IMG/VR virus record: IMGVR_UViG_3300022407_004352
Coordinates: 15,601 to 79,600 of that record
DNA: 64,000 nt
Source of the DNA: a virus
Lineage: Duplodnaviria > Caudoviricetes
Reading direction: 5' to 3' (one strand)
The position numbers and the translations under genes were made by a program. The notes under the pieces were generated by a model. That model was not told the origin of the DNA, made no database searches, and saw nothing but the letters and a program-made list of their open reading frames with translations. Below are positions 12,445-25,995 of this stretch, in pieces (position 1 is the first letter of the stretch; each line of letters opens with the position of its first letter).

Positions 12445-12477
12445 TATCTTTGCATTAACAAAATAAAGAAAAATATG
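12445..12477 (+). promoter_or_regulatory. Promoter (-7 TATCTTTG) + A-rich leader
   Basis: Exact box 30 nt before the ATG at 12475. Confidence 0.65.
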
Positions 12478-12783: not shown

Positions 12784-12791
12784 GGTCTATC

Positions 12792-12830
12792 AGGGGTTTC
12801 CCATTCCTAAGTGAGTGGGGAACTCCTTTG
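12792..12830 (+). terminator. Terminator-like hairpin
   Basis: 14-bp stem AGGGGTTTCCCATT/AGTGGGGAACTCCT, short T tail. Confidence 0.55.
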
Positions 12831-12849
12831 ACTATTAAAAACTAAAACA

Positions 12850-13065
12850 ATGAAAACTCTAAAGGCCTTCTATGAACACTTGCAAGTAAATGGCATGTGG
12901 ATTCTAGCAATATTTACCGGGCTAACTTTCCTGTTCCCGGTATATTGGATTTGGAAACAGGAAGACTACCTACAGGACCTATTGCTATGGATCATCATAG
13001 TAAGTACTGTATGGGTGATCTATTTGGTGGGTTCTTTCTTTTACTTTAAACGACAAAATCTATGA
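12850..13065 (+). CDS. Small membrane protein (2 TM)
   Basis: Two hydrophobic segments. Confidence 0.65.
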   Translation: MKTLKAFYEHLQVNGMWILAIFTGLTFLFPVYWIWKQEDYLQDLLLWIIIVSTVWVIYLVGSFFYFKRQNL

Positions 13066-13148
13066 TCTGGTACATTGGAATTATTTTGGGCTTATTAGCC
13101 GCGGGTATTATCATTAATCTATTAACCGGTAATAGCCCATTATTATGA
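13062..13148 (+). CDS. 28-aa membrane peptide (not in ORF track)
   Basis: MIWYIGIILGLLAAGIIINLLTGNSPLL; ATGA overlaps with both neighbours. Confidence 0.55.
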   Translation: MIWYIGIILGLLAAGIIINLLTGNSPLL

Positions 13149-13576
13149 ATACGCTCCTGATCAGCTCCGGATTCTACCTTATATACCTAGTGATAGATGC
13201 TCGACAAGATGCATCTTACATACTAAGGTATGGTAGAATCTATCATGGGTGGAACTGGGCATTGAAAGCATCCACAATAATGGGTATAGGGTATGCAAAC
13301 TTTGAAAACTGGATTCAGACAGCTGCCTATTGCTTTCTAATGGTACCTATCACCTGGATTGTCTTTGAGCTATTCCTTTATGGATTTATGGACAAGAATC
13401 CACTAACCTATGTGGGTTCGGGTGGATGGGATGAATGGTTTAAATATCATTTTGGTAACAGGGGAAAAAATGATGCCCGAGCATCAAGGGCTATTTGGAT
13501 TTCAAAACTACTTCTTCTTATCTTTGCACTATGGATATTTCTATACACCAAAAATATTGATTGGCGGCTATCATGA
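13145..13576 (+). CDS. Multi-pass membrane protein
   Basis: About 4 hydrophobic segments. Confidence 0.65.
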   Translation: MNTLLISSGFYLIYLVIDARQDASYILRYGRIYHGWNWALKASTIMGIGYANFENWIQTAAYCFLMVPITWIVFELFLYGFMDKNPLTYVGSGGWDEWFKYHFGNRGKNDARASRAIWISKLLLLIFALWIFLYTKNIDWRLS

Positions 13577-13701: not shown

Positions 13702-13736
13702 TAAATTTGAGTATAAATAAAAAATCAATCATTATG
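13702..13736 (+). promoter_or_regulatory. Promoter-leader cassette (TAAATTTG + AAAAATCAATCATTATG)
   Basis: Exact -7 box and the shared leader. Confidence 0.65.
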
Positions 13737-13976
13737 AAAAAGGAAGCACCTCAACTCACAGTCCAAAAAATGACTCCTCTGCTCGATTTCGATGAGGTCA
13801 GCAAGGGAACCAAGATATTCCACCAGAATGACCAAAAGAAGGTTCATTGGGAATATACCTCCTACATTATTACCGGAGTATCAGATACTCACCTGCTCTG
13901 CAAAGATGCAGGAGGTAAGAGATTTGCCTTTGCCTGGGAAGATTTACCGGATTATAACTTCAAAGTAATTGTATGA
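13734..13976 (+). CDS. Hypothetical protein
   Basis: ATG 13734 follows the leader; the track's TTG start at 13707 lies inside the promoter. Confidence 0.65.
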   Translation: MKKEAPQLTVQKMTPLLDFDEVSKGTKIFHQNDQKKVHWEYTSYIITGVSDTHLLCKDAGGKRFAFAWEDLPDYNFKVIV

Positions 13977-14275
13977 GAAATCAGGATATAATTACCATCG
14001 CCACTTCGGTATTCCCTGACTCCATTACATGGGATGTATTAGAGGATTTGACCGAAGACCAAGAAATTCTAAGCAGTTTACTTGATACCCTTAAAGATTA
14101 TGAGCTCTTTTCGGAAGATCAGGAACAAGAACTAATACTCTTCTGCAAAGAGTTGATATATGCCGAGCATATCCATACCGAGTATAGTTTCCTTGAGTAT
14201 GTGAATTGGACCCATATCCTTTATGCCTTGATTAAAACCAATGAACCCATCTTTAAACCTGAATTACACATATGA
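13973..14275 (+). CDS. Hypothetical protein
   Basis: Coupled ORF. Confidence 0.6.
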   Translation: MRNQDIITIATSVFPDSITWDVLEDLTEDQEILSSLLDTLKDYELFSEDQEQELILFCKELIYAEHIHTEYSFLEYVNWTHILYALIKTNEPIFKPELHI

Positions 14276-14532
14276 CACCGGATTACACCCATTGGGCAAA
14301 GAAGTTTGACAAGGTCAAGCATATCTATTGCGATAAACCTGAAACGGGAACCTTATGTGGAAGCGTTGCCCATTGCTTGGGTAATAACTATGCTACCAAG
14401 GAAATGGAGGTTTGCCCGGAATGCCTTAAGGTAAGGGCAAAAGAGGAAGATGGTGATGAACCGGATTATAATGCACCATCAAACTATGAAAGACAAGAAC
14501 GCCAAGACTTTATTCAACGAAACCTAAAATAA
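14272..14532 (+). CDS. Hypothetical protein with Zn-finger-like Cys/His
   Basis: HIYC..TLCG...HCLG...CPEC. Confidence 0.6.
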   Translation: MTPDYTHWAKKFDKVKHIYCDKPETGTLCGSVAHCLGNNYATKEMEVCPECLKVRAKEEDGDEPDYNAPSNYERQERQDFIQRNLK

Positions 14533-14533
14533 A

Positions 14534-14914
14534 ATGAAACGATCAATCGGTCCTATGGTAAAAGTCAAAGACCAATTACCTCAAGAGGTAATATTGGAAT
14601 TCTTAGGCAATGTATCATTCTCTTCCAATCCGGAAGGCGATGTATCCATTGCTGAACAGATTGCCTCTAACAATTACAGCTCCTTACAAAACCTCATTGA
14701 TACCTGCCGGGGTGAGATTCGGGTGGGTAGATTAAAGAAGGAATTTGAGGCAATGGTAAAGAGATTACCGGAATCACCCTTTTATCAAAAATACCTCAAG
14801 GATGAACCCGACCTGAGCATGAAGGCATTTATGGCGGAGATGAGTAAACTGGGTAGATCAGTATCCAATCCAGCCCAATATGGGGAATGGAAACGTAAAC
14901 AATCAAACCGATGA
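14534..14914 (+). CDS. Hypothetical protein
   Basis: ORF. Confidence 0.6.
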   Translation: MKRSIGPMVKVKDQLPQEVILEFLGNVSFSSNPEGDVSIAEQIASNNYSSLQNLIDTCRGEIRVGRLKKEFEAMVKRLPESPFYQKYLKDEPDLSMKAFMAEMSKLGRSVSNPAQYGEWKRKQSNR

Positions 14915-15129
14915 AAAAGACCCTTTTGATCTATACTCAATGCACTCAGGATGGTATGCATGAGCAATTGTTGATATTGGAGCCTAATCAAATAATCTTT
15001 GAGGCGACAATAGAGAGTGAGGATGGTACCTTCTATCTTGAGTATGTAGTGGGTGGACAAGATAACTCTGCCTATTTCATGGAGAAGCTGGTAGTTGAAT
15101 CTGAAACCGAAATAACCATAAAAAGATGA
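14911..15129 (+). CDS. Hypothetical protein
   Basis: Coupled ORF. Confidence 0.55.
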   Translation: MKKTLLIYTQCTQDGMHEQLLILEPNQIIFEATIESEDGTFYLEYVVGGQDNSAYFMEKLVVESETEITIKR

Positions 15130-15386
15130 ACCGATTATTTCTAACTGCAGTTACCGGGGAAATATGCATGTATGTAATGCATGGAATAAAGCCCCCCTAT
15201 AACCCAATATCTCTCTTTGTCCAAGAGGCAAAGAAAGAGGGTTTGGTTGTGAAGAAGGGAAAGTTACATGCCCTGGGGGCATTGAGAAGACTTTACAAAG
15301 ACAATAACCTCAAAGAACATGCTTTATTAGGTAAAGCAATAGAGCATGAGGAAAAGAGAACCAACCGTAAACTTCTAATACCATGA
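15126..15386 (+). CDS. Hypothetical protein
   Basis: Coupled ORF. Confidence 0.55.
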   Translation: MNRLFLTAVTGEICMYVMHGIKPPYNPISLFVQEAKKEGLVVKKGKLHALGALRRLYKDNNLKEHALLGKAIEHEEKRTNRKLLIP

Positions 15387-15733
15387 GGGAGTCTATTTAC
15401 AAATTATGGACGGGGCAATATATAGACCTTAACCATATCCTAATGATTTCAGATGCCTATTTCATTGACCGAATGGGCAATGGTGGATGGTTCAGAGGGT
15501 TTAGTATCCAATTCATGTTTATGGATAAGCCAAGGGATTTTGTCTTTGATGTAGATAGAGAGAAGTATGTCCGGTTTAAAGATGAACATCAGTTACTTAT
15601 CAAGGGTGAGTGGATCGGAGCTAGAAACCTACATCTATATGATGCTAACCAGTCGGATGCAGTGAAAGACCTTCAAGTTAAGGTGGATGAGGTTATTAGA
15701 GTTTGGAAAGAGTTTAAAGATGGTAAACCATAA
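15383..15733 (+). CDS. Hypothetical protein
   Basis: Coupled ORF. Confidence 0.6.
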   Translation: MRESIYKLWTGQYIDLNHILMISDAYFIDRMGNGGWFRGFSIQFMFMDKPRDFVFDVDREKYVRFKDEHQLLIKGEWIGARNLHLYDANQSDAVKDLQVKVDEVIRVWKEFKDGKP

Positions 15734-15738
15734 CTATA

Positions 15739-16128
15739 ATGAGAAGAGAACCCAACTTTGAAGATGATCTACCATTTATCATCATGACTTGCTTCATGGC
15801 CTTGTTCATAGGGATCATATTAGGTATGTGGATAAACTCTCGAAGAGAAAAAGAATCAGCCCCTTTAAACCCAAAGAACCATCCATTATCTTTGAATATG
15901 GAAAAATCAATCAGACCTTTTAATCCGAAACCCATCAAGGATGGATTAGGATACCCGAACACCAATTGCTTAAATGCAACGGAGTTCAAAGAAATGACGG
16001 ATTGGATGGGGAATAAGCCCCGACCAATGCTCGACTATCTCTTCTACCTATTGGCAGAAGGGAAGCTAACTACGGCTAAAAAATTAATGGATGCAAATCC
16101 TAACCTTAACATAATCTATCCAATATGA
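15739..16128 (+). CDS. Membrane-anchored hypothetical protein
   Basis: TM segment FIIMTCFMALFIGIILGMWI. Confidence 0.6.
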   Translation: MRREPNFEDDLPFIIMTCFMALFIGIILGMWINSRREKESAPLNPKNHPLSLNMEKSIRPFNPKPIKDGLGYPNTNCLNATEFKEMTDWMGNKPRPMLDYLFYLLAEGKLTTAKKLMDANPNLNIIYPI

Positions 16129-16685
16129 GAACAATATATGAAACATGGGTGATAGGCGAATATGCTAACCCCTCACACTTTGAAGAGAAGATATTTGCTA
16201 GCTTCCAACTTGCTGACCAAGGGAATCGCCAGAGACTAGTAGAAGCATTCCCCCATTACTTCGGAGGTCTTCCGACTGATGAAAGCCTGAATAAGGTTCT
16301 TACTATGAGTACAAACTCCGTACAAAAGACCTATATGGGTATTTTATATAAAGCCCTTGAAAGACAATGGGATGACATCTTTGATCTAGCCAATATGATT
16401 GCAGCCCTTGATAATATCAAGGAACACTACCGAGTTCAAGCTCAGACGATTGTACCACCCAATGAAGCAGAGAGGAAGATCGCTGCAGCCAAAAGGGATT
16501 GGAGAATTACCGAAACCCAAAAAGAGATCATTCAGGAATACCTGATTCCAGTCACTGAGGCTATTGAATATAAGAATCTTGAGTTCAATGACTTGCCCGA
16601 AGATTTGAAAGAGGAACTCCTGAAGTTGGTAAAAACAACAGACCAGATAATCAAACTGATAAACCCCGATGCTGATGAAAACTGA
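16125..16685 (+). CDS. Hypothetical protein
   Basis: N-terminal F...F..AD..NR.RL..AFP small-domain pattern plus coiled coil. Confidence 0.6.
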   Translation: MRTIYETWVIGEYANPSHFEEKIFASFQLADQGNRQRLVEAFPHYFGGLPTDESLNKVLTMSTNSVQKTYMGILYKALERQWDDIFDLANMIAALDNIKEHYRVQAQTIVPPNEAERKIAAAKRDWRITETQKEIIQEYLIPVTEAIEYKNLEFNDLPEDLKEELLKLVKTTDQIIKLINPDADEN

Positions 16686-17010
16686 GATAGAACGATTCTT
16701 TGATGAGGTAGAGCATGTAACTAAGTTTATTAATGCAAACCATCATTATACCTTATGCAATGCAAAGCTTACCAAAAAGGTAATGGAGTTTCTAGTAGAA
16801 GAGAATGAATGGTTGATTCTTAAAACCCCGGATGCATCCGAAGATAATACCTATAAGGAATATACCTTCTACTCAGTGGGATCATTGGATGCTCTCACCA
16901 TAGAGCAATTTGAAGCCGGTAGACCCTCTATTAAATTATGGGTAAGGGGTGGAATTCCAGCCATATTAAGTCTATATGATTTAACCATAACCAGAGAAGA
17001 TATTCTCTAA
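16669..17010 (+). CDS. Hypothetical protein
   Basis: ORF. Confidence 0.55.
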   Translation: MLMKTEIERFFDEVEHVTKFINANHHYTLCNAKLTKKVMEFLVEENEWLILKTPDASEDNTYKEYTFYSVGSLDALTIEQFEAGRPSIKLWVRGGIPAILSLYDLTITREDIL

Positions 17011-17015
17011 TCACC

Positions 17016-17249
17016 ATGTATACATACCGAATTGATTATCGAGTTTATTGGCAGGATTCAATACTTGAAGATTCCTATGACCTAGTAAGTGATGTAACAG
17101 CCAAGGAGGCATCATCGAAGTTGAAGTCAGAATTAAAAGCCAAATATGCACCTAGAAAGGTATCGGTCAGAACCATTACCCCAAAGACTGCATACACGGG
17201 TACTAAAACCGGATTCAAAATACCCAAATCTTCACCCCATAAATATTGA
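17016..17249 (+). CDS. Hypothetical protein
   Basis: ORF. Confidence 0.55.
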   Translation: MYTYRIDYRVYWQDSILEDSYDLVSDVTAKEASSKLKSELKAKYAPRKVSVRTITPKTAYTGTKTGFKIPKSSPHKY

Positions 17250-17372: not shown

Positions 17373-17408
17373 TATCTTTATTATAGGATAAAAATTCAAT
17401 CTAACATG
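17373..17408 (+). promoter_or_regulatory. Promoter-leader cassette (TATCTTTA variant)
   Basis: ATTGATTATCTTTA is shared with 18716-18730. Confidence 0.45.
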
Positions 17409-17975
17409 AAAAAGAAATTAACCCATTTTGCCTTTGGACTCCATCAAATGGTGGAAAGGATTGAAGATGCCCTTGAAAGCCCCAACAGAGAGATCGGTGA
17501 AGAATTCTTTGCATGGGCGAAAGATCAAAACCTGAAAGAGGATTTGAGAAGCCTGAATCATTATATTGCTGAGGCAGCCCCGATCATTGAGGATTTTCCA
17601 TTCAAGAAAGAACCTGCCATAGAATTCATTTACCTATTGCCTAAGAAATTAAGAATACCCCTAAGGCTACAGGTGGTTCTTATGCAGGATTATGAAAGAG
17701 GTAAATATAAAGATTATACCTCATTGCACATATCAGAACCCACCCTGTTGATTAAGAATGATAAAAGGGCTATATTATCCACCATTAAGAGGATGGAACA
17801 GATTGCAGGTTGGGTGATGAAGGATTATGATGATGGTAAAAATAGAATATGGGAAACCCTGGGGCTAGGTGGAGATGACTCCGTGGACTATGCAGGAGGC
17901 TATGTATTTGCCATCTGCTCTTGCTTGAGAGCCTGGGCATACCGAGAATATAATGACTCTAAATTCTTAAAATAA
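17406..17975 (+). CDS. Hypothetical protein
   Basis: First ORF of a cassette. Confidence 0.65.
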   Translation: MKKKLTHFAFGLHQMVERIEDALESPNREIGEEFFAWAKDQNLKEDLRSLNHYIAEAAPIIEDFPFKKEPAIEFIYLLPKKLRIPLRLQVVLMQDYERGKYKDYTSLHISEPTLLIKNDKRAILSTIKRMEQIAGWVMKDYDDGKNRIWETLGLGGDDSVDYAGGYVFAICSCLRAWAYREYNDSKFLK

Positions 17976-18247
17976 TGACACGAGATACATTTGATACCCT
18001 GAAAACCATAATTAAGGAATCTGAACTCCTTATGAACCTAGCTGAGACAGAGCCAGATCGGGATGAGCAAGATGAGGTCCCCAATGTCAGAGATAGATTG
18101 CTTGATGGGGCTAATCTGATCGACCTCTACATTGAATTTTGGGATCATATCATCTGGTGCAGATTCTATAAGCCCAAAATTGATGAGGATGAGCTAGAAT
18201 ACCATTTTTGGAAGATTGCCGAAGAAACTTTAACAGATAAACCATGA
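17975..18247 (+). CDS. Hypothetical protein
   Basis: Coupled ORF. Confidence 0.6.
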   Translation: MTRDTFDTLKTIIKESELLMNLAETEPDRDEQDEVPNVRDRLLDGANLIDLYIEFWDHIIWCRFYKPKIDEDELEYHFWKIAEETLTDKP

Positions 18248-18690
18248 AATTCATACTTACACCTTACCTGACTAGAATAACACTGAAATGGCTATTCATC
18301 CTATTGCTAACCATAATCTCTATCTATTGCCCATACAGAACATATAAGATTTTCATGAGAGAAGATAGCCAAAGATGTGGAACTATTACCTGGAAAGGAG
18401 ATAAAGACCAGGTACATAAATATAATACCAAAACTGAGTTCATTATGGTAATTGATTACCCAACGGGAAGAGAGGAAGCCATAGTATCAGCTGCTACATG
18501 GGCATCTCACAAGGTAGGTGATAGAATATGCTTCCTAGTCCGTAATAATATGCCATTAGATTTTTGGGAATTTGCTTATTTTGTTATAAGCATCGTTGAG
18601 GCAATAGTTTTCTTTGTCATATCAGTGGGAATGATTATCGAAGGCATAAGATGGCTATTCGGAATGGGACCCACCCCGGAAGAATATTAA
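18244..18690 (+). CDS. Membrane protein (2 TM flanking a beta domain)
   Basis: N- and C-terminal hydrophobic segments. Confidence 0.6.
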   Translation: MKFILTPYLTRITLKWLFILLLTIISIYCPYRTYKIFMREDSQRCGTITWKGDKDQVHKYNTKTEFIMVIDYPTGREEAIVSAATWASHKVGDRICFLVRNNMPLDFWEFAYFVISIVEAIVFFVISVGMIIEGIRWLFGMGPTPEEY

Positions 18691-18722
18691 AGGGGCTCTT
18701 TAGAACTCTTCTACCGATTGAT

Positions 18723-18757
18723 TATCTTTATATCATAATTAAAAATCAATCATTATG
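18723..18757 (+). promoter_or_regulatory. Promoter-leader cassette (TATCTTTA + ATAATTAAAAATCAATCATTATG)
   Basis: Leader nearly identical to those at 13.7 and 20.8 kb. Confidence 0.55.
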
Positions 18758-19012
18758 ATACCTGAAAAATTATCCACCCAAGAGTTGCATTACCTGATCA
18801 ATGATCATTTGCAAAAAGACCCAAGACATGCCCTACAAGAATTGATCAAAGATCGGTGGGGTATCGGTCATGATCTCCAATTTCCTCAAGGTTCTATTAT
18901 GGTAGAAATCATGGGTTCATATAGAAATGCCGATAAGAAGAGGTTTAAAAGATTATATCGGGCATTTCGGAAATTTACCAATCAAAGGAACGTAAAGATC
19001 GCCTTGTATTAG
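18755..19012 (+). CDS. Hypothetical protein (possibly frameshifted; may extend to 19092)
   Basis: A -1 frame is open 18949-19092 and its stop overlaps the next ATG. Confidence 0.5.
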   Translation: MIPEKLSTQELHYLINDHLQKDPRHALQELIKDRWGIGHDLQFPQGSIMVEIMGSYRNADKKRFKRLYRAFRKFTNQRNVKIALY

Positions 19013-19088
19013 ATGTAGGTAATGAATCCAATGCCACAACCTTTGAATTGCCCTTAGACCAGATAAACGAAATTAAATTCACCCTGCT

Positions 19089-19316
19089 ATGAAAATAACC
19101 ATATCAACCCTAGAAAGAGGGATGCTTACCTTCTTAGGCAGAAAGATTGCTAAAAAACACTTGCGCGACCGGATAGATGAATTGCCAGAGATATACTCGG
19201 AAGATGTGGAGGCAAGATTGGAGAATATAAGGGCTACCATAAAAGCCCTAAAGAAAGAAAGAGAAACCCTATATTTGCTAATAAACCCAAAAAGATATGA
19301 AACTAACGCAGATTGA
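19089..19316 (+). CDS. Hypothetical protein
   Basis: ORF. Confidence 0.55.
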   Translation: MKITISTLERGMLTFLGRKIAKKHLRDRIDELPEIYSEDVEARLENIRATIKALKKERETLYLLINPKRYETNAD

Positions 19317-19635
19317 ATTAGAAGGTAATAAATGCAAATTCTGCCAAAGAAAGGACCAGAAACAATTATACCTATTGGAGTCCAATTACAGACTCAAAAC
19401 CATATTATGCAACCACTGCATGTGGAGTTTGATAGAACAATTCAATGAGGCGAGAATCAATGGCATAGAAGGAAAAGAGCCAGAATTGAAATTAATCAGA
19501 TGGGCGGATCACCATTACCCACCTATTAATCTCAATGAAAACGCCAATGAGGTGGCTAGATTGGTACAAGAGATCAAGAGATTAAGACTGGGAAAGAAAA
19601 ACCACTCGGTAAAGAAGGGCAAGAAGAGAAAATAA
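19297..19635 (+). CDS. Zn-finger hypothetical protein
   Basis: CKFC...CNHC. Confidence 0.6.
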   Translation: MKLTQIELEGNKCKFCQRKDQKQLYLLESNYRLKTILCNHCMWSLIEQFNEARINGIEGKEPELKLIRWADHHYPPINLNENANEVARLVQEIKRLRLGKKNHSVKKGKKRK

Positions 19636-19667
19636 CCATCTAATACTCAACGATCTAGATTCAAAAG

Positions 19668-19697
19668 AGGCTCATAGATATTCTATGGGCCTTTTCT
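19668..19697 (+). terminator. Intrinsic terminator
   Basis: AGGCTCATAGA/TCTATGGGCCT stem + TTTCT. Confidence 0.7.
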
Positions 19698-19751
19698 ATG
19701 TGTTATATAAGAGGCCACAACCCTCTTATCTCTTTAAAAAAAAACATAAAT

Positions 19752-20582
19752 ATGAGTACAATAAGAATACCAAGACCAACAGGACTAACTAATATGATTA
19801 AGAATCATAGTAGGATAAAGGATGAGAGAATGAGAGGAAAGGAACTAAAGAGAATAAAGGAGCATGTAATAAACCAATACATCAGAGAAGGCTTTAGACT
19901 CAACGGAGAGACTAAGGACATAGGAGACATAGGAAGGTATTTAGGTGAAACCGAGAAATGGGTATTACAAAGGATACAGAGATTTGGAACACTATTGGAA
20001 GGAAAGGACCAAGATGGGCTCAGTAAGGCATTAAAAGCGATGTCTTTACAGGCTTCTATGGCAAGCCGAAGTATTATTATGGCCCAGGCAACCTACCTGT
20101 TTGAGAGTCAATCAGTTGAGTACCAGAAATCAAACCCGGGAAAGAAGAATGGCTATGTACCTTTCCTTACATCAGAGGTAAATCGAAGCCTTGCCAACCT
20201 AATTGCAAGCGATAATACCTTACTCAACCTACTGAAGATTGTTGCCCCACCTGCCAAGAACAGCCCTACCATACAAATTAACAACCAACAGGCTAACCTA
20301 GGTAATCAGCCCTCTACGGAGACCCTAATCAATATCAATCAGGCCGTACAGCTAATAGACAAAGGCCGTGAGGCTACCTTACTAGAGGATGATGGGCTCC
20401 AAAATAGGCTCTTGGCTCAGCACATTACCCCTGATGTACCTGAAGTAATAGCTACGCAGCAAAGAGGGTTTAATGCCACTAATGAGGCAGCAGGCCTTAA
20501 AAAGAAGCCTAAAAAGGTACAATTACATGAGATTCGCTCTGAATCGGATGGAGAGATCATCAACCCTGAAATCATAGAATAG
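19752..20582 (+). CDS. Putative terminase small subunit
   Basis: N-terminal HTH-like segment (DIGDIGRYLGETEKWVLQRIQ), helical core, TIQINNQQ beta tail typical of TerS. No TerS candidate lies next to TerL. ATG 19752 preferred. Confidence 0.4.
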   Translation: MSTIRIPRPTGLTNMIKNHSRIKDERMRGKELKRIKEHVINQYIREGFRLNGETKDIGDIGRYLGETEKWVLQRIQRFGTLLEGKDQDGLSKALKAMSLQASMASRSIIMAQATYLFESQSVEYQKSNPGKKNGYVPFLTSEVNRSLANLIASDNTLLNLLKIVAPPAKNSPTIQINNQQANLGNQPSTETLININQAVQLIDKGREATLLEDDGLQNRLLAQHITPDVPEVIATQQRGFNATNEAAGLKKKPKKVQLHEIRSESDGEIINPEIIE

Positions 20583-20610
20583 GCTACATACCTTACCATA
20601 TATAGTGGAA

Positions 20611-20760
20611 TTTTGCGCGCTTATAGGTCAGGTATGGCCAAAGGGCCCAATTTGGCCAGCTGGTTGCGAAGTTCGGTATGGCCATTTTAGGTATGGCCAG
20701 CCGGCCGGACCCGCCACGAGGAGAGGGTATGGCAGAAAGCCATGAATTTTAGGGTACAAA
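20611..20760. repeat. GC-rich module A (4x GGTATGGC, 6x GGCC)
   Basis: GGTATGGC at 20631, 20675, 20690 and 20726; homologous to 21431-21490. Confidence 0.8.
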
Positions 20761-20788
20761 GCCCCTTGATTGAGATATGCATTATATC

Positions 20789-20822
20789 TATATTTGATCC
20801 ATAATTAAAAATCAATCAAATG
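20789..20822 (+). promoter_or_regulatory. Promoter-leader cassette (TATATTTG + ATAATTAAAAATCAATCAAATG)
   Basis: Exact -7 box. Confidence 0.7.
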
Positions 20823-21065
20823 AAAAAGAATGACCTTATTACCCAATCTCTCATAGATGATCTAAGAGAGAAGATTCAGAAAACCCCGGATTTAGGAATC
20901 CGACAGACCCACCTCAATATTCTTGAGGTTATGGAGGCATGCATTGGAAATTCATTAGATTCCCTTTTGAATACCCTCTTTGATGAATGGGATGAAGATG
21001 AGGCAATGTATGGCTTCTCTCCAAAAGAATTCCTGATATTTGATACCATGTACCTAAGAGATTAA
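20820..21065 (+). CDS. Small acidic hypothetical protein
   Basis: First ORF of a cassette; acidic C-half (FDEWDEDE). Confidence 0.65.
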   Translation: MKKNDLITQSLIDDLREKIQKTPDLGIRQTHLNILEVMEACIGNSLDSLLNTLFDEWDEDEAMYGFSPKEFLIFDTMYLRD

Positions 21066-21070
21066 AAGCC

Positions 21071-21367
21071 ATGAAAAAGATAAAAGACCATGATATTGAG
21101 CTCATCGGCATTAAGATCAAAGCCCGATTAGAAGAAGCCCGAACCAGCAACCATCATTTTATTGCCTTCTATGAAAGGATGCAGAAAATTCAGAATGAGG
21201 CTGAGTCCCTAATAACCCATTGGAAAGAAAACCCTGTGGACCATGAGGGAATCCTGAATGATAGCCTCAATACCCTCATCGAAGAGATGCTGGACATACC
21301 GGACCTGAATCATGCAGACCTTGCCCAATATCTTATACACTACTACACCATAACCGAAAAGGCATGA
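21071..21367 (+). CDS. Hypothetical helical protein
   Basis: ORF followed by a terminator. Confidence 0.65.
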   Translation: MKKIKDHDIELIGIKIKARLEEARTSNHHFIAFYERMQKIQNEAESLITHWKENPVDHEGILNDSLNTLIEEMLDIPDLNHADLAQYLIHYYTITEKA

Positions 21368-21383: not shown

Positions 21384-21405
21384 AGCCCCGAAAGGGGCTT
21401 TTCTT
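21384..21405 (+). terminator. Intrinsic terminator
   Basis: AGCCCC-GAAA-GGGGCT-TTTCTT. Confidence 0.9.
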
Positions 21406-21430: not shown

Positions 21431-21565
21431 ATTTGCGCGCCTAACACGACCCATAGGGTATTGGGCCCACACTGGCCGACTGGTCTGGCATGGCCGAGAC
21501 TGGCCTTGATCCACCGAAATTGGCGCGCTTGGTCGAGAGGTTTTAGGCACCAGGCCAGAGGGGCA
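21431..21565. repeat. GC-rich module B (2x GCGCGC, 5x GGCC)
   Basis: TTTGCGCGC-N22-GGGCCCA-N3-TGGCC-N2-CTGGT, same spacing as module A, 820 bp downstream. Confidence 0.8.
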
Positions 21566-21597
21566 GGAAATTTGCCTCGAAAATAGATTTTTGAAAT

Positions 21598-21644
21598 TCG
21601 GATATTTTTCCGATATTTGATCAAATAAAAAAATCAATCAAATG
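21598..21644 (+). promoter_or_regulatory. TCGGA-N6-TCCGA palindrome + GATATTTG -7-like box + AAAAATCAATCAAATG leader
   Basis: Palindrome 21598-21613 overlaps the box at 21612-21619. Confidence 0.6.
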
Positions 21645-21821
21645 AAAAATTCAAAAAAATCATTTTATCCGGAATCATTAAATTCGGATCAATTAGAAAT
21701 TCTTATGCATATCAATGCAAAGGAAGAGAAAAAAGAAAATCTGATCTATGCATGGATCGGATTTATCCTATTTGAAATATGCATTATTGCCCCTATCTTT
21801 TATCTTTATTATCTTGCATAA
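21642..21821 (+). CDS. 59-aa membrane protein (not in ORF track)
   Basis: MKNSKKSFYPESLNSDQLEILMHINAKEEKKENLIYAWIGFILFEICIIAPIFYLYYLA; canonical leader; C-terminal TM helix. Confidence 0.75.
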   Translation: MKNSKKSFYPESLNSDQLEILMHINAKEEKKENLIYAWIGFILFEICIIAPIFYLYYLA

Positions 21822-21822
21822 A

Positions 21823-21851
21823 TCGGATTAATATCCGATATTTGAATTATG
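21823..21851 (+). promoter_or_regulatory. Second TCGGA-N6-TCCGA palindrome + GATATTTG box
   Basis: Palindrome 21823-21838 and box 21837-21844, just before the ATG at 21849. Confidence 0.5.
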
Positions 21852-22265
21852 AAAAAATCAATCAAAAAATCAGAAGAGATTCAAGGAATCAAATCTGAAA
21901 TCAAAATCAAAAAATCTCAAAAATTGGATTCTGCAAATCTTTCAAAGATCAAAGAAGAATCTAAAGGATCAGAAGAGAAAAAAGGGAATCTTTATATTGG
22001 ATTTTCTTCCTTATCTTCAAATGATCAGAAAAAAGAGAGATCAAAATTAAGGAGAAAATTGGAAAATTTCAGAAAGGAGATTTTAGGGAAAGATCGGAAA
22101 AAGGAAGAGAAGGAAGAGGGATTAAAATCTTTCATTCAATTCTATAAAAAGAATTGGAAGATTCAAGATTTTAAATTTGAAAATTTCTCTCATCAAAAGG
22201 ATGAAGATTTTAAATCCGATTGGATCGAAATTCTTTCCAATGCAAAGAAATCCTTAGAGAAATAA
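21849..22265 (+). CDS. Lys/Glu/Ser-rich putative DNA-binding protein lacking Thr, Val, Pro and Cys
   Basis: LYIG..LSSNDQKKERSKLRRKL resembles the motif of 12475-12783; followed by a terminator. Confidence 0.75.
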   Translation: MKKSIKKSEEIQGIKSEIKIKKSQKLDSANLSKIKEESKGSEEKKGNLYIGFSSLSSNDQKKERSKLRRKLENFRKEILGKDRKKEEKEEGLKSFIQFYKKNWKIQDFKFENFSHQKDEDFKSDWIEILSNAKKSLEK

Positions 22266-22282
22266 ATAAGGATTGAAAAATG

Positions 22283-22318
22283 AAATCCGATAGATTTATC
22301 CTCTATCGGATTTTTTTT
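22283..22318 (+). terminator. Intrinsic terminator
   Basis: AAATCCGATAGA/TCTATCGGATTT stem + T-run. Confidence 0.85.
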
Positions 22319-22347
22319 ATCCTTTCCATCCTACACACCCTATCCTG

Positions 22348-22442: not shown

Positions 22443-22622
22443 TTAATATACCTTAATCACTATTATCTGCTTACCCAGCTCCCATTGGTCTAACCCCCTT
22501 TGAAACTCCGGAAACTCATCTTTTATATGCTCCTCTGCTCTAAACCTGGATTCCTTAACTGCCGAGATACGAAGGAACTTGTCATCTGCATACACCATTA
22601 CTACATAGTATCTCTTTTTCAT
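22443..22622 (-). CDS. 59-aa hypothetical protein (not in ORF track)
   Basis: MKKRYYVVMVYADDKFLRISAVKESRFRAEEHIKDEFPEFQRGLDQWELGKQIIVIKVY; ATGA overlap with the upstream gene. Confidence 0.6.
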   Translation of the reverse strand: MKKRYYVVMVYADDKFLRISAVKESRFRAEEHIKDEFPEFQRGLDQWELGKQIIVIKVY

Positions 22623-22861
22623 GTTAACGTGATTAAGTCCGCTGCATCTACTACGAGATTCATTGGCTGTAAGGGTTGATTAAAGGAAAGAACCATAACA
22701 TATAGTTTCCGAGTCTTACAAAACTGTTGAAACTCCTCCTCACTCATTTCCCAACAAGTGAGTATCTCACCATCCGGAAACTTCATGGCCGGTAATTCCT
22801 GATATGCAGCTTGATCTTTCCCATAGATTACGTTACTTCCTGTAAATGTGGTGGGTCTCAT
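22619..22861 (-). CDS. Hypothetical phage protein
   Basis: NVIYGKDQ..YQELPA...GEILTCW..SEEE...L.V..FNQPLQP. Confidence 0.7.
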   Translation of the reverse strand: MRPTTFTGSNVIYGKDQAAYQELPAMKFPDGEILTCWEMSEEEFQQFCKTRKLYVMVLSFNQPLQPMNLVVDAADLITLT

Positions 22862-22878
22862 AATTGTAGTTATAATAC

Positions 22879-23196
22879 TTAGTTTCGTCCATACTTCAGG
22901 ATATGATAGCTTTTATCAGCCAGTAAAGCACCCGTGATGTCTATTTGCATAGTATCCAAAGGATTCACCATTAAACCTAGCTTCTTTTCTACTACTATCC
23001 CTACTAATCCCGCCTTCACCATGTAGATACGGTAGAATACTAGAATTTCAGGTTTAGCAACTCTTGGTACCTTAACTACTATGTTGGCCGATATTTTACC
23101 ATCTTCACTCAAGTGGTATGACAACTCCGGATGTACTCTGTCCGATAAAGCCAGACCCTTGAATTTAACTCTTACATGCAATGCTACTTTAGTCAT
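22879..23196 (-). CDS. Hypothetical protein
   Basis: ORF. Confidence 0.6.
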   Translation of the reverse strand: MTKVALHVRVKFKGLALSDRVHPELSYHLSEDGKISANIVVKVPRVAKPEILVFYRIYMVKAGLVGIVVEKKLGLMVNPLDTMQIDITGALLADKSYHILKYGRN

Positions 23197-23326
23197 TTCT
23201 CTCTTGTTTAAATTTTAAAATTATACCAAACATAGGTATAGGGAACACATACAGCCATTTCTTTTTAGAGTCCCAAAAGAACCCTACCCATAGGTCATAC
23301 CACGCAAAGATTAATTTTATTTTCAT
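23189..23326 (-). CDS. 45-aa hydrophobic hypothetical protein (not in ORF track)
   Basis: MKIKLIFAWYDLWVGFFWDSKKKWLYVFPIPMFGIILKFKQERND; overlaps the next start. Confidence 0.65.
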   Translation of the reverse strand: MKIKLIFAWYDLWVGFFWDSKKKWLYVFPIPMFGIILKFKQERND

Positions 23327-23591
23327 AGTTTCTCTTTTTTAAATTGTTCATGGCTATTTGGAATTAGGTGTGTAAAATCATAACCATTCATTTACAATTT
23401 TCACATAAAGAGCGGGTGAGACGGTTGCCAAATCTAACTTTATCATCTCATCCACCAATTTCATTCTTGATTCATGACACCGTTTAATAGCTCTGCTTTT
23501 TTCCTTACTATTTATTTTGTGATCGTACAGTACGAGTAAAAGTTTTTTCTTTTCGCTCTTTGTCATAGTTTCTCTTTTTTAAATTGTTCAT
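23323..23591. repeat. 29-bp direct repeats flanking one gene
   Basis: TCATAGTTTCTCTTTTTTAAATTGTTCAT at 23323-23351 and 23563-23591. Confidence 0.9.
23378..23566 (-). CDS. Hypothetical protein
   Basis: Lies between the 29-bp repeats. Confidence 0.55.
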   Translation of the reverse strand: MTKSEKKKLLLVLYDHKINSKEKSRAIKRCHESRMKLVDEMIKLDLATVSPALYVKIVNEWL

Positions 23592-24153
23592 ACCAATACT
23601 CTTTAGCAGCCTGTGATTTGGCTCCTGCGATGAGTTCCTTTTCAAATCCATTAATGATGGTATTCATATACTCAACATACAACTGACTTGCTATATAAGG
23701 CTTCTGACCTGCATTTAATTTATCGGCTGCCATTTGCTGAATCGCTAAACTCTTTTGTTTTACAGCTTCTTCAATTGGTTGTTGCTTTGGTTTAATCAGG
23801 TCTTTCGTTGAGTATCTTTTTAATCTGTCATCTAACTTCTCCTTTGGCACAAGGATGGCGACTAAATTACAGTGCTTACCGTCACAGGGGACATTAGTAC
23901 ATTCTTTTTGTACTTCATATCCCTCAGGTATAGGATAGGACTTGCCTTTAAATAGGCCACCACGTTTTTCATCCTGAATAAGTATATTTTCGATTTCACG
24001 TTGATTCTTAAAATAAACCGCATCACGCTTGGCGGCTTCAAGTGCTGCTTTATATCTTTCAACTCCATCATCATCTATAACATACAGACTTTGATCAGGC
24101 ATCTCATAAGCAAAGATTCTTTCTTGCTCGTCAAGTTCTATTGTGTTTATCAT
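23563..24153 (-). CDS. Hypothetical protein
   Basis: ORF. Confidence 0.6.
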   Translation of the reverse strand: MINTIELDEQERIFAYEMPDQSLYVIDDDGVERYKAALEAAKRDAVYFKNQREIENILIQDEKRGGLFKGKSYPIPEGYEVQKECTNVPCDGKHCNLVAILVPKEKLDDRLKRYSTKDLIKPKQQPIEEAVKQKSLAIQQMAADKLNAGQKPYIASQLYVEYMNTIINGFEKELIAGAKSQAAKEYWYEQFKKEKL

Positions 24154-24428
24154 TTTAGTTTTTTTATACCTCTTGACTCCTGATTTCTTGCCTTGGAGAT
24201 AATCTTAAGCATCCTAGCCATCAAATCCTCTAGCTCTACGATCTTTCTCATCTGCTCCACATCCAATACCCGGATTTGGCTTTTTTGTCCCGCTTTCTCC
24301 AACTCTTTAGCACGGTGGATAGTATTAGTCTCAATAAACCCACAACGAATGGATAATGCTGTATATATCTCTTCTGCTTCTTTCCCTGTAAGGTCTCCGG
24401 GTTCTTGATTATCTTTTGCTGTTCTCAT
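24150..24428 (-). CDS. Hypothetical protein
   Basis: Coupled ORF. Confidence 0.6.
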   Translation of the reverse strand: MRTAKDNQEPGDLTGKEAEEIYTALSIRCGFIETNTIHRAKELEKAGQKSQIRVLDVEQMRKIVELEDLMARMLKIISKARNQESRGIKKLK

Positions 24429-24432
24429 ATAC

Positions 24433-24849
24433 TTAGCTGTTGGATTCTGGTATTTTAATTAATGGTGTAACTGAAATGTCGAGGTAATACTGGGGGTCTT
24501 TTATATACTCCAAAGGTTCTAGGAGATCACCGGCTTGATTTCTCAAATATCCCCCACGATTCAGATTTATAACATAGGATTTCCGTCCACCAGGCAATAT
24601 TTTAGGATCATCTAGTGATTTTTTATCTTTATCGGATAGATTTCCACCCAATAGATGCTTTTTTAATGCTAGAATCAATGATTTTTCAGATTTAGGGTTA
24701 TTTACCCAAGGTATAGCAATAAGGTCTAAATCTCTCTTCATGCTCCCATGAATTACTAGATTATAGCCCATCCTTTTGGCAATTTTCTTTAATGCCAAAA
24801 AGGTATAAGCATAAAATTGGGGCTTTACATGTATGGACTTTCTTTTCAT
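24433..24849 (-). CDS. Hypothetical protein, possible minimal nucleotidyltransferase-like fold
   Basis: GYNLVIHGSMKRDLDLIAIPW (GS..RDxD pattern). Confidence 0.4.
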   Translation of the reverse strand: MKRKSIHVKPQFYAYTFLALKKIAKRMGYNLVIHGSMKRDLDLIAIPWVNNPKSEKSLILALKKHLLGGNLSDKDKKSLDDPKILPGGRKSYVINLNRGGYLRNQAGDLLEPLEYIKDPQYYLDISVTPLIKIPESNS

Positions 24850-25232
24850 AGGTCTTTTCTCATAAAGTTTTGTATCACATCATGTCCTACTTTCAATTCC
24901 CATAGGGGGTTACTTCTTATAAAGCTCCATTCCAGTATAAAATCCTTTGCAAAGACTCGATGACCATCGGGCATATGGTAGATTCCTTTTATAGCCACAA
25001 GATTTTTCTGATCCTGTTCGGTAGCATTAGGGGGTAAAGGTTGTTGATAGAGATAAACTGTATATTCTTTATCCTGTACATAAAGATTCACCTCCGTGGG
25101 GTTACTCTCAGTTCCAATGATGGGCTCATAAAGTTCGGGTTCTTTCATGCCTACCCGAATAAACCTACCGGCTAAATAAGCAGTACCTAGTGAAACAAGA
25201 AGAGTTCCCAATACTAATAGAAATACTGTCAT
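24846..25232 (-). CDS. Membrane-anchored hypothetical protein
   Basis: N-terminal TM segment. Confidence 0.6.
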   Translation of the reverse strand: MTVFLLVLGTLLVSLGTAYLAGRFIRVGMKEPELYEPIIGTESNPTEVNLYVQDKEYTVYLYQQPLPPNATEQDQKNLVAIKGIYHMPDGHRVFAKDFILEWSFIRSNPLWELKVGHDVIQNFMRKDL

Positions 25233-25513
25233 ACTGTTGGTTTTAGATTTGAATAAGCATAATACTTAACTATATAATAATAACCTCCACCCATGTTTAC
25301 TGAGAAATACCGTCCGGGGCCAAACTGGTGAACCTTGGTAAGAGTATCAGCAATATTCTTGCTCCATACGGCTACAGTCTTATTAGCATGGATATTATTT
25401 ATCAGTTGGTTCATTTGGTTTACGTACCGAGCATCTCCTTTGCTAGTTCCTCTCGGAGTCATTACAACATCTATCTTGTTTAGTAATGACATGATCTGCT
25501 TAGTTCTTCTCAT
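25229..25513 (-). CDS. Hypothetical protein
   Basis: Coupled ORF. Confidence 0.55.
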   Translation of the reverse strand: MRRTKQIMSLLNKIDVVMTPRGTSKGDARYVNQMNQLINNIHANKTVAVWSKNIADTLTKVHQFGPGRYFSVNMGGGYYYIVKYYAYSNLKPTV

Positions 25514-25995
25514 TTTAATAATTTTTCAATAACCCGAATAGAAGATTGATAGGCTCTTATATTTACCTCAAGAGTTGATTTATCTCTTACAAGATGCATC
25601 ACCTCGGTATTCAGCTCCCCAATCTTCTCCTGTTGACTTTCCAACTCTTGCCGTAAGTTTAGAATGGTCTCATCTTGTTGGTAGATTGTTTCTTGTCTTC
25701 TACGCAGAACATCACTCATGGATTCTTCCTGTTCTTTCACATGGACGGCCTTGTAATCCTCAGCATACTTTAGACGTACTGACTCTTCTGCTTCAGGCAG
25801 GTCAACAACAAGTATGGGGGTCTGCGGTTTGTTAATCTCAAAATCTTTCGGGAGCATACTTAACAAACCATGTAACTCTGCGGCTAGATGAGATGCATCC
25901 TCTATACTAATCTTAGTATAGAGTGTTTCCATCTCGGTTAGAAATGTAATATAGATTGCATTGTTTTCGAGTTTTAGTTGAATGTTCTTGCTCAT
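25510..25995 (-). CDS. Coiled-coil hypothetical protein
   Basis: C-terminal heptad pattern. Confidence 0.6.
   Translation of the reverse strand: MSKNIQLKLENNAIYITFLTEMETLYTKISIEDASHLAAELHGLLSMLPKDFEINKPQTPILVVDLPEAEESVRLKYAEDYKAVHVKEQEESMSDVLRRRQETIYQQDETILNLRQELESQQEKIGELNTEVMHLVRDKSTLEVNIRAYQSSIRVIEKLLK

What the first reader, a model, noticed from the sequence alone, without database searches (positions are those of the whole stretch)
17406..21367. Graded AC/GT depletion leftwards of the island, tolerating only ACC/GGT
In 20820-21367 I count only 5 GT in about 550 bp, and about 20 of 26 AC steps are ACC. Both proteins there have a single Val. The ACC/GGT bias is still visible by eye in 17.4-18 kb, whereas structural genes are rich in GTA/TAC and AGT/ACT. 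A gradient that sharpens toward 22.3 kb and then ends abruptly suggests entry order, with injection running from about 22.3 kb leftwards. It also suggests the avoided target is roughly AC[A/G/T] (= [A/C/T]GT).
Basis: partly seen in the sequence, partly recalled or inferred. Interest (0 to 1): 0.7.

Follow-up and report, generated by a model that had tools for sequence, protein, structure and literature searches.

The report
Graded AC-site avoidance in phage early genes
In an uncultured 80-kb phage, the early genes to the left of a small AC/GT-free gene island are themselves partly cleared of AC followed by T, G or A on both DNA strands. This points to selection against a very short DNA site, but the pattern does not fit the order in which the DNA enters the cell.

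Summary
The depletion survives amino-acid-preserving nulls, including a shuffle that keeps each gene's own codon usage (z = -9.5).

- **Level.** It acts on DNA and is equal on both strands. The order is ACT = ACG > ACA, and ACC serves as the escape.
- **Codon evidence.** Thr-ACC rises from 0.21 to 0.60. NAC codons are kept before C and dropped before T or G. TGT and AGT shift to TGC and AGC, and Val is lost.
- **Extent.** The trend runs about 11-17 kb leftwards, beyond the given range, and stops abruptly on the right (Spearman -0.70, p = 7e-8).
- **Not strictly graded.** Inside 17.4-21.4 kb there is no trend. A three-level staircase fits as well as a ramp. The conserved 294-aa gene 1 kb from the island is nearly normal.
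- **Relative.** A 76-kb relative has the AC/GT-free island but flat flanks.
- **Entry order.** The terminase is T4-type and the assembly is circular, which argues against a fixed entry end.

The most likely reading is a weaker form of the island's constraint, weighted by how early a gene is read from incoming, probably cytosine-modified, DNA. The scan had already noted this same stretch (e1-5919645), but not on other DNA.

The parts
8035..13576 (+). Outer zone of the graded depletion (15 small early-type genes). ACT/AGT are at 0.84/0.74 of the structural level and ACC at 1.41.
   Evidence: host-type -7 boxes (TAnnTTTG-like) plus the AAAAATCAATCA leader at 8035 and 12475
13734..17249 (+). Middle zone: 11 small genes in one apparent transcription unit. 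ACD/HGT observed/expected is 0.64, Thr-ACC 0.51, Cys TGC 0.92.
   Evidence: promoter-like box at 13653-13680; genes 13973-17249 have no homologue in relative G001
17406..19635 (+). Six small genes of unknown function, strongly depleted (69 observed vs 140 expected, 0.49). ACT/AGT are at 0.47/0.32 of the structural level.
   Evidence: no Pfam family; no homologue in G001; own promoter cassettes at 17406 and 18755
19665..19695 (+). Intrinsic terminator that closes the preceding unit.
19698..20582 (+). Conserved 294-aa gene, the exception to the gradient (observed/expected 0.84). It has homologues in four relatives, and all of those are also AC-normal.
   Evidence: no family found; low-confidence fold; weak HTH lead only
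20766..20819 (+). Promoter cassette and leader, identical in its last 14 bases to the island's cassette (AAATCAATCAAATG).
20820..21367 (+). Two-gene unit (81 and 98 aa) with the strongest partial purge (10 observed vs 33 expected, 0.30). It has 20 of 26 AC as ACC, 5 GT, and one Val per protein.
21384..21399 (+). Intrinsic terminator that closes the two-gene unit.
21549..22333 (+). The AC/GT-free island (context for this finding). There are zero AC/GT in 784 bp, running from about 50-65 bp upstream of the -7 box to 19 bp past the terminator. AGC/GCT are also absent.
   Evidence: a 770-bp counterpart in relative G001
22443..27338 (-). Convergent minus-strand block with no depletion (observed/expected 1.05 and 0.84, Thr-ACC 0.20). 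This marks the abrupt right-hand end.
27391..28365 (+). C5-cytosine DNA methyltransferase-like gene that heads the late operon. It is a candidate writer of a short-motif mark, conserved in G001 (55% identity).

Best explanation
The flank carries a real, strand-symmetric, DNA-level selection against AC followed by T or G (more weakly A), which equals [A/C/T]GT on the other strand. The phage escapes in four ways. It writes Thr as ACC. It uses NAC codons only when the next codon starts with C. It swaps TGT and AGT for TGC and AGC. It replaces Val. This is the attenuated form of the constraint that clears every AC/GT from the neighbouring promoter-to-terminator island.

Inferred mechanism: the virion DNA probably carries 5-modified cytosine, and A-C* sites on the incoming DNA are hazardous. 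A likely agent is a McrBC-like reader of purine-modified-C, or a context-dependent mark that blocks reading. The cost of a site would scale with how early the gene must be read from that incoming DNA. The immediate-early island therefore tolerates none, the unit that shares its promoter cassette tolerates few, the other host-promoter early units tolerate an intermediate number, and the replication and late genes are nearly unconstrained.

Shown: the motif, its symmetry, its independence from codon usage, its extent, the exception gene, and its absence from one relative.
For: - **Motif and symmetry.** Normalised to structural genes, ACT/AGT are 0.47/0.32, ACG/CGT 0.50/0.53, ACA/TGT 0.88/0.63 and ACC/GGT 1.49/1.04 in 17406-19635. 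In 20820-21367 the same pairs are 0.18/0.21, 0/0, 0.57/0.95 and 2.60/0.37.
- **Context test.** The NAC share of NAY codons is 0.64 before C, 0.31 before T, 0.28 before A and 0.03 before G. In structural genes it is 0.51, 0.52, 0.32 and 0.12.
- **Not codon usage.** The within-gene synonymous permutation gives z = -9.5. Intergenic DNA is also poorer, 33 against 64 sites per kb.
- **Codon and residue shifts.** Thr-ACC goes 0.21 to 0.51 to 0.60, Cys TGC goes 0.51 to 0.83-0.92, and Val goes 6.7% to 3.1% to 0%.
- **Tie to transcription units.** The sharpest step lies at the promoter cassette at about 20.7 kb, and that cassette matches the island's. The depleted zone coincides with units that carry host-type -7 boxes and the shared leader. 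The island spans promoter to terminator in two phages.
- **Selection rather than drift in the island.** Homologues of the island protein at 55-73% identity contain no Val or Thr.
- **Modified cytosine is plausible.** The ThyA-family enzyme has Asp at the substrate-specificity position (aligned to the N229D mutant and to CMP hydroxymethylase) and keeps the catalytic Cys. A dUTPase_2/MazG-like enzyme, a dCMP deaminase and a dNMP kinase lie beside it.
- **Precedents.** E. coli McrBC reads 5'-R(m)C and binds A(m)C or G(m)C about 100-fold better than Y(m)C (PMC3424535). Phage C5-methyltransferases can have dinucleotide specificity that depends on the next base, such as GpC[C/T] (PMC8256090).
Against: - No expression data exist, so the temporal classes are inferred only from promoter-like boxes.
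- A smooth ramp fits as well as steps. Distance predicts the depletion better than gene conservation does (logL -123.2 vs -130.2), so a purely positional cause remains possible.
- The relative G001 has the island but flat flanks. The flank effect is therefore lineage-specific and is not an automatic consequence of the island's cause.
- GC is not avoided in the flank (GCC/GGC are enriched), which does not match E. coli-type R(m)C specificity.
- The tolerance of ACC has no demonstrated molecular basis.
- The minus-strand block also has a host-type promoter box, yet it is not depleted.
Confidence: 0.45

Rival explanations
1. Entry order. The genome has a fixed end at about 22.3-22.45 kb, the island enters first and the DNA follows leftwards. 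Selection against a restriction-type target decays with entry time. The minus-strand block enters last and is unconstrained.
For: - The depletion is strongly asymmetric: 0 in the island, 1.05 immediately to the right, and a decline over about 11-17 kb to the left.
- Distance is the best single predictor.
- The depletion is symmetric on both strands, as expected for a double-stranded DNA target.
- There is precedent. Motifs matter only in the first-injected region of T5-like phages and of Autographiviridae (PMC10644984; PMC12455610).
- Two 21-bp direct repeats lie in the gap at 22340-22415.
Against: - TerL is of the T4 gp17 type, which implies headful packaging with permuted ends.
- The assembly is circular with no break at the island.
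- The 294-aa gene 1-2 kb from the island is almost unpurged (p 4e-5).
- The left edge of the island is sharp and coincides with the promoter in G001, and G001's flank is flat.
- The genes are transcribed towards the supposed leading end, so transcription could not pull the DNA in as it does in T7.
Confidence: 0.2
2. Compositional heritage. The depleted genes are hypervariable accessory genes exchanged among related phages, and that gene pool is ACD-poor and ACC-rich. On this reading the apparent gradient is a mosaic boundary and not local selection.
For: - Window 13973-19635 and 20820-21367 have no homologues in G001.
- The distant relative L006 has Thr-ACC near 0.5 on both sides of its island.
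- L005 shows the same bias in the two genes upstream of its 294-aa homologue.
- The conserved 294-aa gene is AC-normal.
Against: - Genes that do have G001 orthologues are also depleted in this phage (0.74-0.85), while their G001 orthologues are not (0.87-1.00).
- Adding conservation status to distance does not improve the fit.
- Heritage only moves the question, because the donor pool would still need the same selection.
Confidence: 0.15
3. Mutational footprint. Context-specific cytosine deamination (5mC at AC, or a host deaminase) converts AC to AT on both strands, most strongly near the island.
For: AT-containing product words rise in the same rank order as their AC precursors fall. ATT/AAT are at 1.31 and ATG/CAT at 1.32, against ATA/TAT at 1.05. 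Ile rises as Val falls.
Against: - The main synonymous shifts are ACT to ACC, TGT to TGC and AGT to AGC. These change the base beside the AC/GT core and are not C-to-T or G-to-A changes at the core.
- Codons are arranged to place NAC before C.
- Island homologues stay free of Val and Thr across 27-45% sequence divergence.
Confidence: 0.05
4. Effects at the translation or mRNA level. Either the early genes have a codon-usage class of their own, or they avoid an ACA/ACY-cutting mRNA interferase.
For: There is a mild general shift from T3 to C3 in neutral codon families (0.37 to 0.47), and GCC rises.
Against: - The depletion is as strong for GT on the sense strand as for AC.
- It survives a null that fixes each gene's codon usage.
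- NAC codons do not rise as a class, which a C3 preference would predict.
- Non-coding DNA is also depleted.
Confidence: 0.05

Closest known systems
Absence of recognition sites in first-injected DNA: the T5/BF23 first-step-transfer region and the leading region of Murciavirus (Autographiviridae)
   Same: In both cases motif avoidance depends on position. Sites count only in a limited early part of the genome, and the rest of the genome keeps them (PMC10644984; PMC12455610).
   Different: Here the avoided word is only 2-3 bases long, not a 4-13-bp R-M site. The avoidance changes amino-acid composition. It is graded or stepped over more than 10 kb. No terminal position is shown, and the terminase type and the circular assembly argue against a fixed leading end.
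McrBC-type modification-dependent restriction (5'-R(m)C, two sites 30-3000 bp apart)
   Same: The target is a dinucleotide-sized site with a purine before a modified cytosine. It is read on either strand and is relevant to phages with 5-substituted cytosine (PMC3424535). This phage has a dCMP-type ThyA homologue.
   Different: GC is not avoided in the flank. The dependence on the 3' base (ACC tolerated) is not a known property of McrBC. No host or host gene is known.
Phage C5-methyltransferases with dinucleotide specificity that depends on the next base (GpC[C/T]), feeding TET or glycosyl hypermodification
   Same: This is a precedent for a phage-written cytosine mark defined by a dinucleotide and modulated by the next base (PMC8256090). 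This phage has a C5-MTase-like gene at the head of its late operon.
   Different: No TET/JBP homologue was found in this genome. ApC specificity is unknown for any methyltransferase. The enzyme's activity and target were not tested.
CpG or TC depletion footprints in viral genomes (for example the APOBEC3 editing gradients of HIV)
   Same: A short word is depleted in a way that varies with position along a viral genome.
   Different: Those footprints are mutational and show the deamination products. Here the synonymous escapes alter the neighbouring base, which indicates selection on the presence of the word.

Membership tests
Leading-region (first-injected DNA) restriction-site avoidance | The purged region lies at the physical end of the packaged genome that enters first | tested here: inconclusive
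   The contig ends overlap by about 125 bp, so the assembly is circular. TerL is T4 gp17-like, which implies permuted headful packaging. Only assembled contigs of one run were available, so no read starts could be seen.
Leading-region (first-injected DNA) restriction-site avoidance | Depletion depends on position alone and affects every gene in the region | tested here: not met
   The 294-aa gene 1-2 kb from the island has observed/expected 0.84, against 0.17-0.68 in its neighbours (p 4e-5).
Leading-region (first-injected DNA) restriction-site avoidance | The avoided word equals the recognition site of a host defence system | not testable with these tools
   The host is unknown. The genome comes from a freshwater metagenome.
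Early-gene codon-usage class or translational selection | The bias is fully explained by codon frequencies and is independent of the neighbouring codon | tested here: not met
   The within-gene synonymous permutation gives a ratio of 0.76, z = -9.5. The choice of NAC depends on the next base, odds ratio 7.4 against 2.5.
mRNA-interferase (ACA/ACY) avoidance | Depletion is confined to the transcribed (sense) strand | tested here: not met
   HGT on the sense strand is as depleted as ACD, about 0.65 each after normalisation.
Avoidance of McrBC-type R(m)C sites by a phage with modified cytosine | The phage DNA carries 5-substituted cytosine | tested here: inconclusive
   The ThyA-family enzyme has Asp at the N229-equivalent position and keeps the catalytic Cys. 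dUTPase_2/MazG-like, dCMP deaminase and dNMP kinase genes lie nearby. There are no chemical data.
Avoidance of McrBC-type R(m)C sites by a phage with modified cytosine | Both AC and GC (R = A or G) are avoided | tested here: not met
   GCC/GGC are at 2.1x the structural level in the near flank. In the island GC survives only as TGC/GCA, while AGC/GCT are absent.
Mutational (deamination) footprint | The word is lost through C-to-T or G-to-A changes at its core | tested here: not met
   The dominant synonymous shifts are ACT to ACC and TGT/AGT to TGC/AGC. The rise in product words is compatible with this family but is not specific to it.

The most novel reading that the evidence does not exclude
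The density of AC[T/G/A] sites along the early arm is a sequence-encoded record of how long each transcription unit must work on the incoming, cytosine-modified genome. A host or phage factor that acts at A-C* sites, and whose action depends on the next base, would be neutralised only later, by products of the AC-free island or by replication. If this is right, the flank gives the specificity of that unknown factor (ACT = ACG > ACA >> ACC) and shows that its cost is dose-dependent. The island alone cannot show either point.
Probability: 0.3. Interest if true: 0.8.

Novelty: new variant of a known kind. Interest (0 to 1): 0.6.

Why it matters
Site avoidance in phages is known for 4-13-bp restriction sites, and position-dependent avoidance is known for first-injected DNA. 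Here the avoided word is only 2-3 bases long, short enough to reshape codon choice, codon order and amino-acid content. It is partial in the flank and total in the island.

The flank supplies two things that the island cannot. The first is the third-base rule (ACC spared, ACT and ACG hit hardest). The second is a dose-response across transcription units. Both give concrete handles for finding the responsible factor: a reader of modified cytosine, or a context-specific writer of the mark.

The work also shows that the appealing entry-order reading should not be assumed from a compositional gradient alone.

Tried and rejected
- **The look-up of encoding contigs.** The contigs behind the closest relatives (P0002 at 77%, P0003 and P0009 on one 6.2-kb contig, P0005 on a 61-kb contig, and P0007/P0008) could not be fetched, so replication rests on G001, L005 and L006 only.
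- **Nucleotide search.** A megablast of the region against phage records found nothing.
- **Related loci.** The 294-aa alignment found no relative in viral contigs. The island-protein alignment found none in genome contigs.
- **Record of L006.** The genome search could not open it, so L006 has no structural-gene baseline.
- **Sequencing runs.** One DNA holder was listed, kept as Logan contigs and probably the source sample. No RNA holder was listed. Laying it showed one 79.3-kb contig across the region, with no joints and no read starts. It carries no information on termini or expression.
- **RNA genes.** There are no tRNA genes in the window, and there is no Rfam family above threshold in 20.5-23 kb.
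- **Flank proteins.** Pfam and PHROGs found nothing for them.
- **The 294-aa protein.** The AlphaFold model is unusable (mean pLDDT 45.9), so no fold search was run. The Atlas gave only weak leads to a T5-type small terminase and an HTH (score 0.90, 122 shared features). That Pfam family is not in the local library.
- **Distant relative DP SC_6.** It has no AC/GT-free island and no ACC bias.
- **L006's island protein.** It could not be shown to be homologous to ours (hhalign probability 1.6%).
- **TET/JBP.** None was found in this genome.
- **Coordinate error.** One translation request was wrong.

Full report
**Setting.** The window is bases 15601-79600 of a 79.6-kb virus record. The ends of the record overlap by about 125 bp, so the assembly is circular. 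The phage is myovirus-like: TerL, portal, protease, major head protein, sheath and tape measure lie at window 30-49 kb. DnaB, PolA, UvsX-like, SbcCD-like and a nucleotide-metabolism module run across the junction. Genes run on the plus strand from the late operon (27391) around the circle to the island at 21.5-22.3 kb. A 5-kb minus-strand block (22443-27338) converges on the island. Start contexts lack Shine-Dalgarno sequences and carry TAnnTTTG-like -7 boxes, which suggests a Bacteroidota-type host. The only holder found is a freshwater metagenome.

**Observation.** Window 20820-21367 has 5 GT and 26 AC, of which 20 are ACC, and each protein has one Val. The adjacent island has no AC or GT for 784 bp, against a genome mean spacing of 10.5 bp.

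I tested the flank with three nulls that preserve amino acids:
- With codons drawn from genome-wide usage, every gene from window 13.7 to 21.4 kb shows fewer non-ACC AC/GT than expected (z -1.3 to -4.9) and more ACC/GGT.
- With codons drawn from structural-gene usage, observed/expected for AC[A/G/T]+[A/C/T]GT in 2-kb bins falls steadily. From genome 18 kb to 38 kb the values are 0.96, 0.88, 0.80, 0.78, 0.70, 0.72, 0.66, 0.54, 0.67 and 0.24. The value then jumps to 1.05 just right of the island, and structural genes sit at 0.87-1.02.
- With synonymous codons permuted within each gene, which keeps that gene's codon usage, the near flank still has a ratio of 0.76 (z = -9.5). Structural genes give 0.92 and the minus-strand block 0.95.

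Intergenic DNA in the near flank has 33 such sites per kb, against 61-64 elsewhere.

**What exactly is avoided.** Normalised to structural genes, the ratios in 17406-19635 are ACT 0.47 / AGT 0.32, ACG 0.50 / CGT 0.53, ACA 0.88 / TGT 0.63 and ACC 1.49 / GGT 1.04. The two-gene unit next to the island gives 0.18/0.21, 0/0, 0.57/0.95 and 2.60/0.37. The avoided word is therefore AC followed by T or G, less so by A. Each word and its reverse complement are depleted alike.

The escapes fit that rule:
- The Thr-ACC share rises from 0.21 (structural) and 0.20 (minus block) to 0.28, 0.34, 0.51 and 0.60 going towards the island.
- Cys TGC reaches 0.83-0.92, and AGT and CGT fall.
- Val falls from 6.7% to 3.1% to 0%.
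- Val is more often preceded by G, 0.21 rising to 0.44.

The cleanest test uses His, Asn, Asp and Tyr, where NAC and NAT are synonymous. In the near flank NAC is used at 0.64 before C, but at only 0.31 before T, 0.28 before A and 0.03 before G. In structural genes the values are 0.51, 0.52, 0.32 and 0.12. A tRNA or codon-preference effect cannot depend on the next codon's first base, and an mRNA-level effect would not remove GT from the sense strand. The cause therefore acts on double-stranded DNA or on both strands.

A mutational origin by C-to-T change at AC is unlikely. The dominant synonymous changes (ACT to ACC, TGT to TGC, AGT to AGC) alter the neighbouring base and leave the core intact.

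A mild general shift from T3 to C3 (0.37 to 0.47 in neutral families) and a rise of GCC also occur. AC/GT avoidance does not explain them.

**Is it a gradient?** Over 45 genes (window 3.3-21.4 kb) the depletion correlates with position (rho -0.70, p 7e-8). No trend exists in the structural block. A linear ramp reaching 16.6 kb, an exponential with a 9-kb constant, and a three-level staircase (0.30 within 0.6 kb, 0.65 out to 10.6 kb, 0.85 beyond) fit about equally well.

The inner step lies at the non-coding module and promoter cassette at about 20.6-20.8 kb. The last 14 bases before that cassette's ATG are identical to the island's. The conserved 294-aa gene (19698-20582) breaks any purely positional rule. 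It has 52 sites where its neighbours' rate predicts 28 (p 4e-5), and its homologues in L005, L006 and G001 are likewise AC-normal.

**Relatives.**
- The island protein has homologues at 55-73% identity that contain no Val or Thr.
- One relative could be read in full: G001 (IMGVR_UViG_3300001589_000003, 76.3 kb; TerL 60-76%, major head protein 71%). It has the same architecture and a 770-bp AC/GT-free island that again runs from about 50 bp upstream of the -7 box to the terminator. Its left arm is flat: observed/expected is 0.87-1.05, Thr-ACC 0.14-0.38 and rho 0.00.
- The most depleted genes of our phage (13973-19635 and 20820-21367) have no homologues in G001.
- Genes that do have orthologues are also more depleted in our phage, 0.74-0.85 against 0.87-1.00 in G001. 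In a joint model, distance predicts the depletion and conservation status adds nothing.
- A 3-kb fragment, L005, shows the ACC bias in the two genes upstream of its 294-aa homologue.
- The distant L006 has Thr-ACC near 0.5 on both sides of an AT-rich island that itself lacks ACC/GGT.

The flank effect is therefore real and selected, but it is lineage-specific and does not automatically accompany the island.

**Entry order.** Nothing I could test supports a fixed leading end at 22.3 kb:
- The terminase is of the T4 gp17 type.
- The assembly is circular.
- The only sequencing run is held as contigs.
- The 294-aa gene is an exception.
- The purged island follows transcription-unit borders in two phages.
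- G001 lacks a gradient.

The sharp left/right asymmetry and the predictive power of distance keep the idea alive at about 0.2. The published cases where only the first-injected region matters (T5-like phages and Murciavirus) remain the closest known analogue.

**Most likely mechanism (inferred).** The phage encodes a ThyA-family enzyme with the catalytic Cys and with Asp at the position that switches the substrate from dUMP to dCMP. That position aligns to the L. casei N229D mutant and to CMP hydroxymethylase. Next to it lie a dUTPase_2/MazG-like enzyme, a dCMP deaminase and a dNMP kinase. A C5-methyltransferase-like gene heads the late operon. The packaged DNA therefore probably carries 5-substituted cytosine.

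A-C* on either strand is the kind of site read by McrBC-type enzymes (5'-R(m)C). Phage cytosine methyltransferases with dinucleotide specificity modulated by the next base are known. I propose that A-C* sites on the incoming genome impede early gene reading or attract cleavage. ACC would be a poor site. The cost of a site would scale with how early the unit must function. The result is none in the immediate-early island, few in the unit with the same promoter cassette, an intermediate number in the other host-promoter units, and near-normal numbers in replication, late and minus-block genes.

Against a simple E. coli-type McrBC reading, GC is not avoided in the flank. In both islands, however, AGC/GCT are absent and GC survives only as TGC/GCA.

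**Verdict.** The motif inference is supported and sharpened. The term 'gradient' holds only on the 10-kb scale and is not monotonic gene by gene. Entry order is disfavoured. The feature is a new variant of position- or time-dependent site avoidance, and it is useful mainly because it reveals the third-base rule and the dose-dependence of the unknown AC-directed pressure.

Noticed in passing
window 21549-22333; L008 9690-10460 (G001): Besides AC/GT, both islands contain no AGC/GCT (0 vs 7.5 expected here, 0 vs 5.3 in G001). Their GC dinucleotides occur almost only as TGC/GCA. This may be a second avoided word, and AGC/GCT are also at 0.56-0.68 of the structural level in the near flank.
   Followed up: partly
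L006 11481-13000 (Ga0196970_1000218): A distant relative has an AT-rich two-gene stretch at the syntenic place. It keeps AC/GT but is poor in ACC/GGT (4 vs 17.8 expected) and GCC/GGC (3 vs 14.3). Its flanks are ACC-rich on both sides (Thr-ACC about 0.5). Homology of its K-rich protein to the island protein was not shown.
   Followed up: partly
window 13973-19635 and 20820-21367: This is a hypervariable stretch. About 19 small genes have no homologue in the otherwise syntenic relative G001, which carries a different gene set between the same conserved anchors (the 80-aa gene at 13734 and the 294-aa gene at 19698).
   Followed up: partly
L001 4739-5524 (genome coordinates, upstream of the window): A ThyA-family enzyme has the catalytic Cys and has Asp at the N229-equivalent specificity position. 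This is the pattern of dCMP-specific hydroxymethylases or methylases. A dUTPase_2/MazG-like enzyme, a dCMP deaminase and a dNMP kinase flank it.
   Followed up: partly
window 27391-28365: A C5-cytosine DNA methyltransferase-like gene (PF00145, E 3e-13) is the first gene of the late operon. It is conserved in G001 (55%) and an equivalent gene is annotated in phage DP SC_6_H4_2017. Its target is unknown.
   Followed up: no
G001:C1:22887-25397 (L009): The TerL of the relative is an uninterrupted 847-aa frame. It carries an in-frame insertion of about 305 aa between the parts that match residues 10-213 and 205-522 of our TerL. This looks like an intein or a homing-endonuclease domain.
   Followed up: no
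window 63876-64000 and L001 1-125: The two ends of the 79.6-kb record repeat about 125 bp, and a primase-like gene runs across the junction. The genome is therefore assembled as a circle, although the record is classed as linear.
   Followed up: yes
window 22280-22456: The 58-aa ORF listed here overlaps the bidirectional terminator hairpin (22282-22314) and the two 21-bp direct repeats. It is probably not a gene.
   Followed up: no
window 25992-26654 (minus strand): A 220-aa protein in the unpurged minus-strand block matches the PHROG 'DNA binding protein' family (E 6e-48). It also matches Pfam Pyr_excise (pyrimidine-dimer DNA glycosylase, E 8e-5, just above the cut-off).
   Followed up: no
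MT121964.1 1401-2000 (L003): The gut phage DP SC_6_H4_2017 (portal 41% identical) has no AC/GT-free stretch. It does have a 600-bp AT-rich stretch a few kb upstream of its methyltransferase with few CC/GG (11, against about 57 per 600 bp nearby). The effect is weak once base composition is taken into account.
   Followed up: partly
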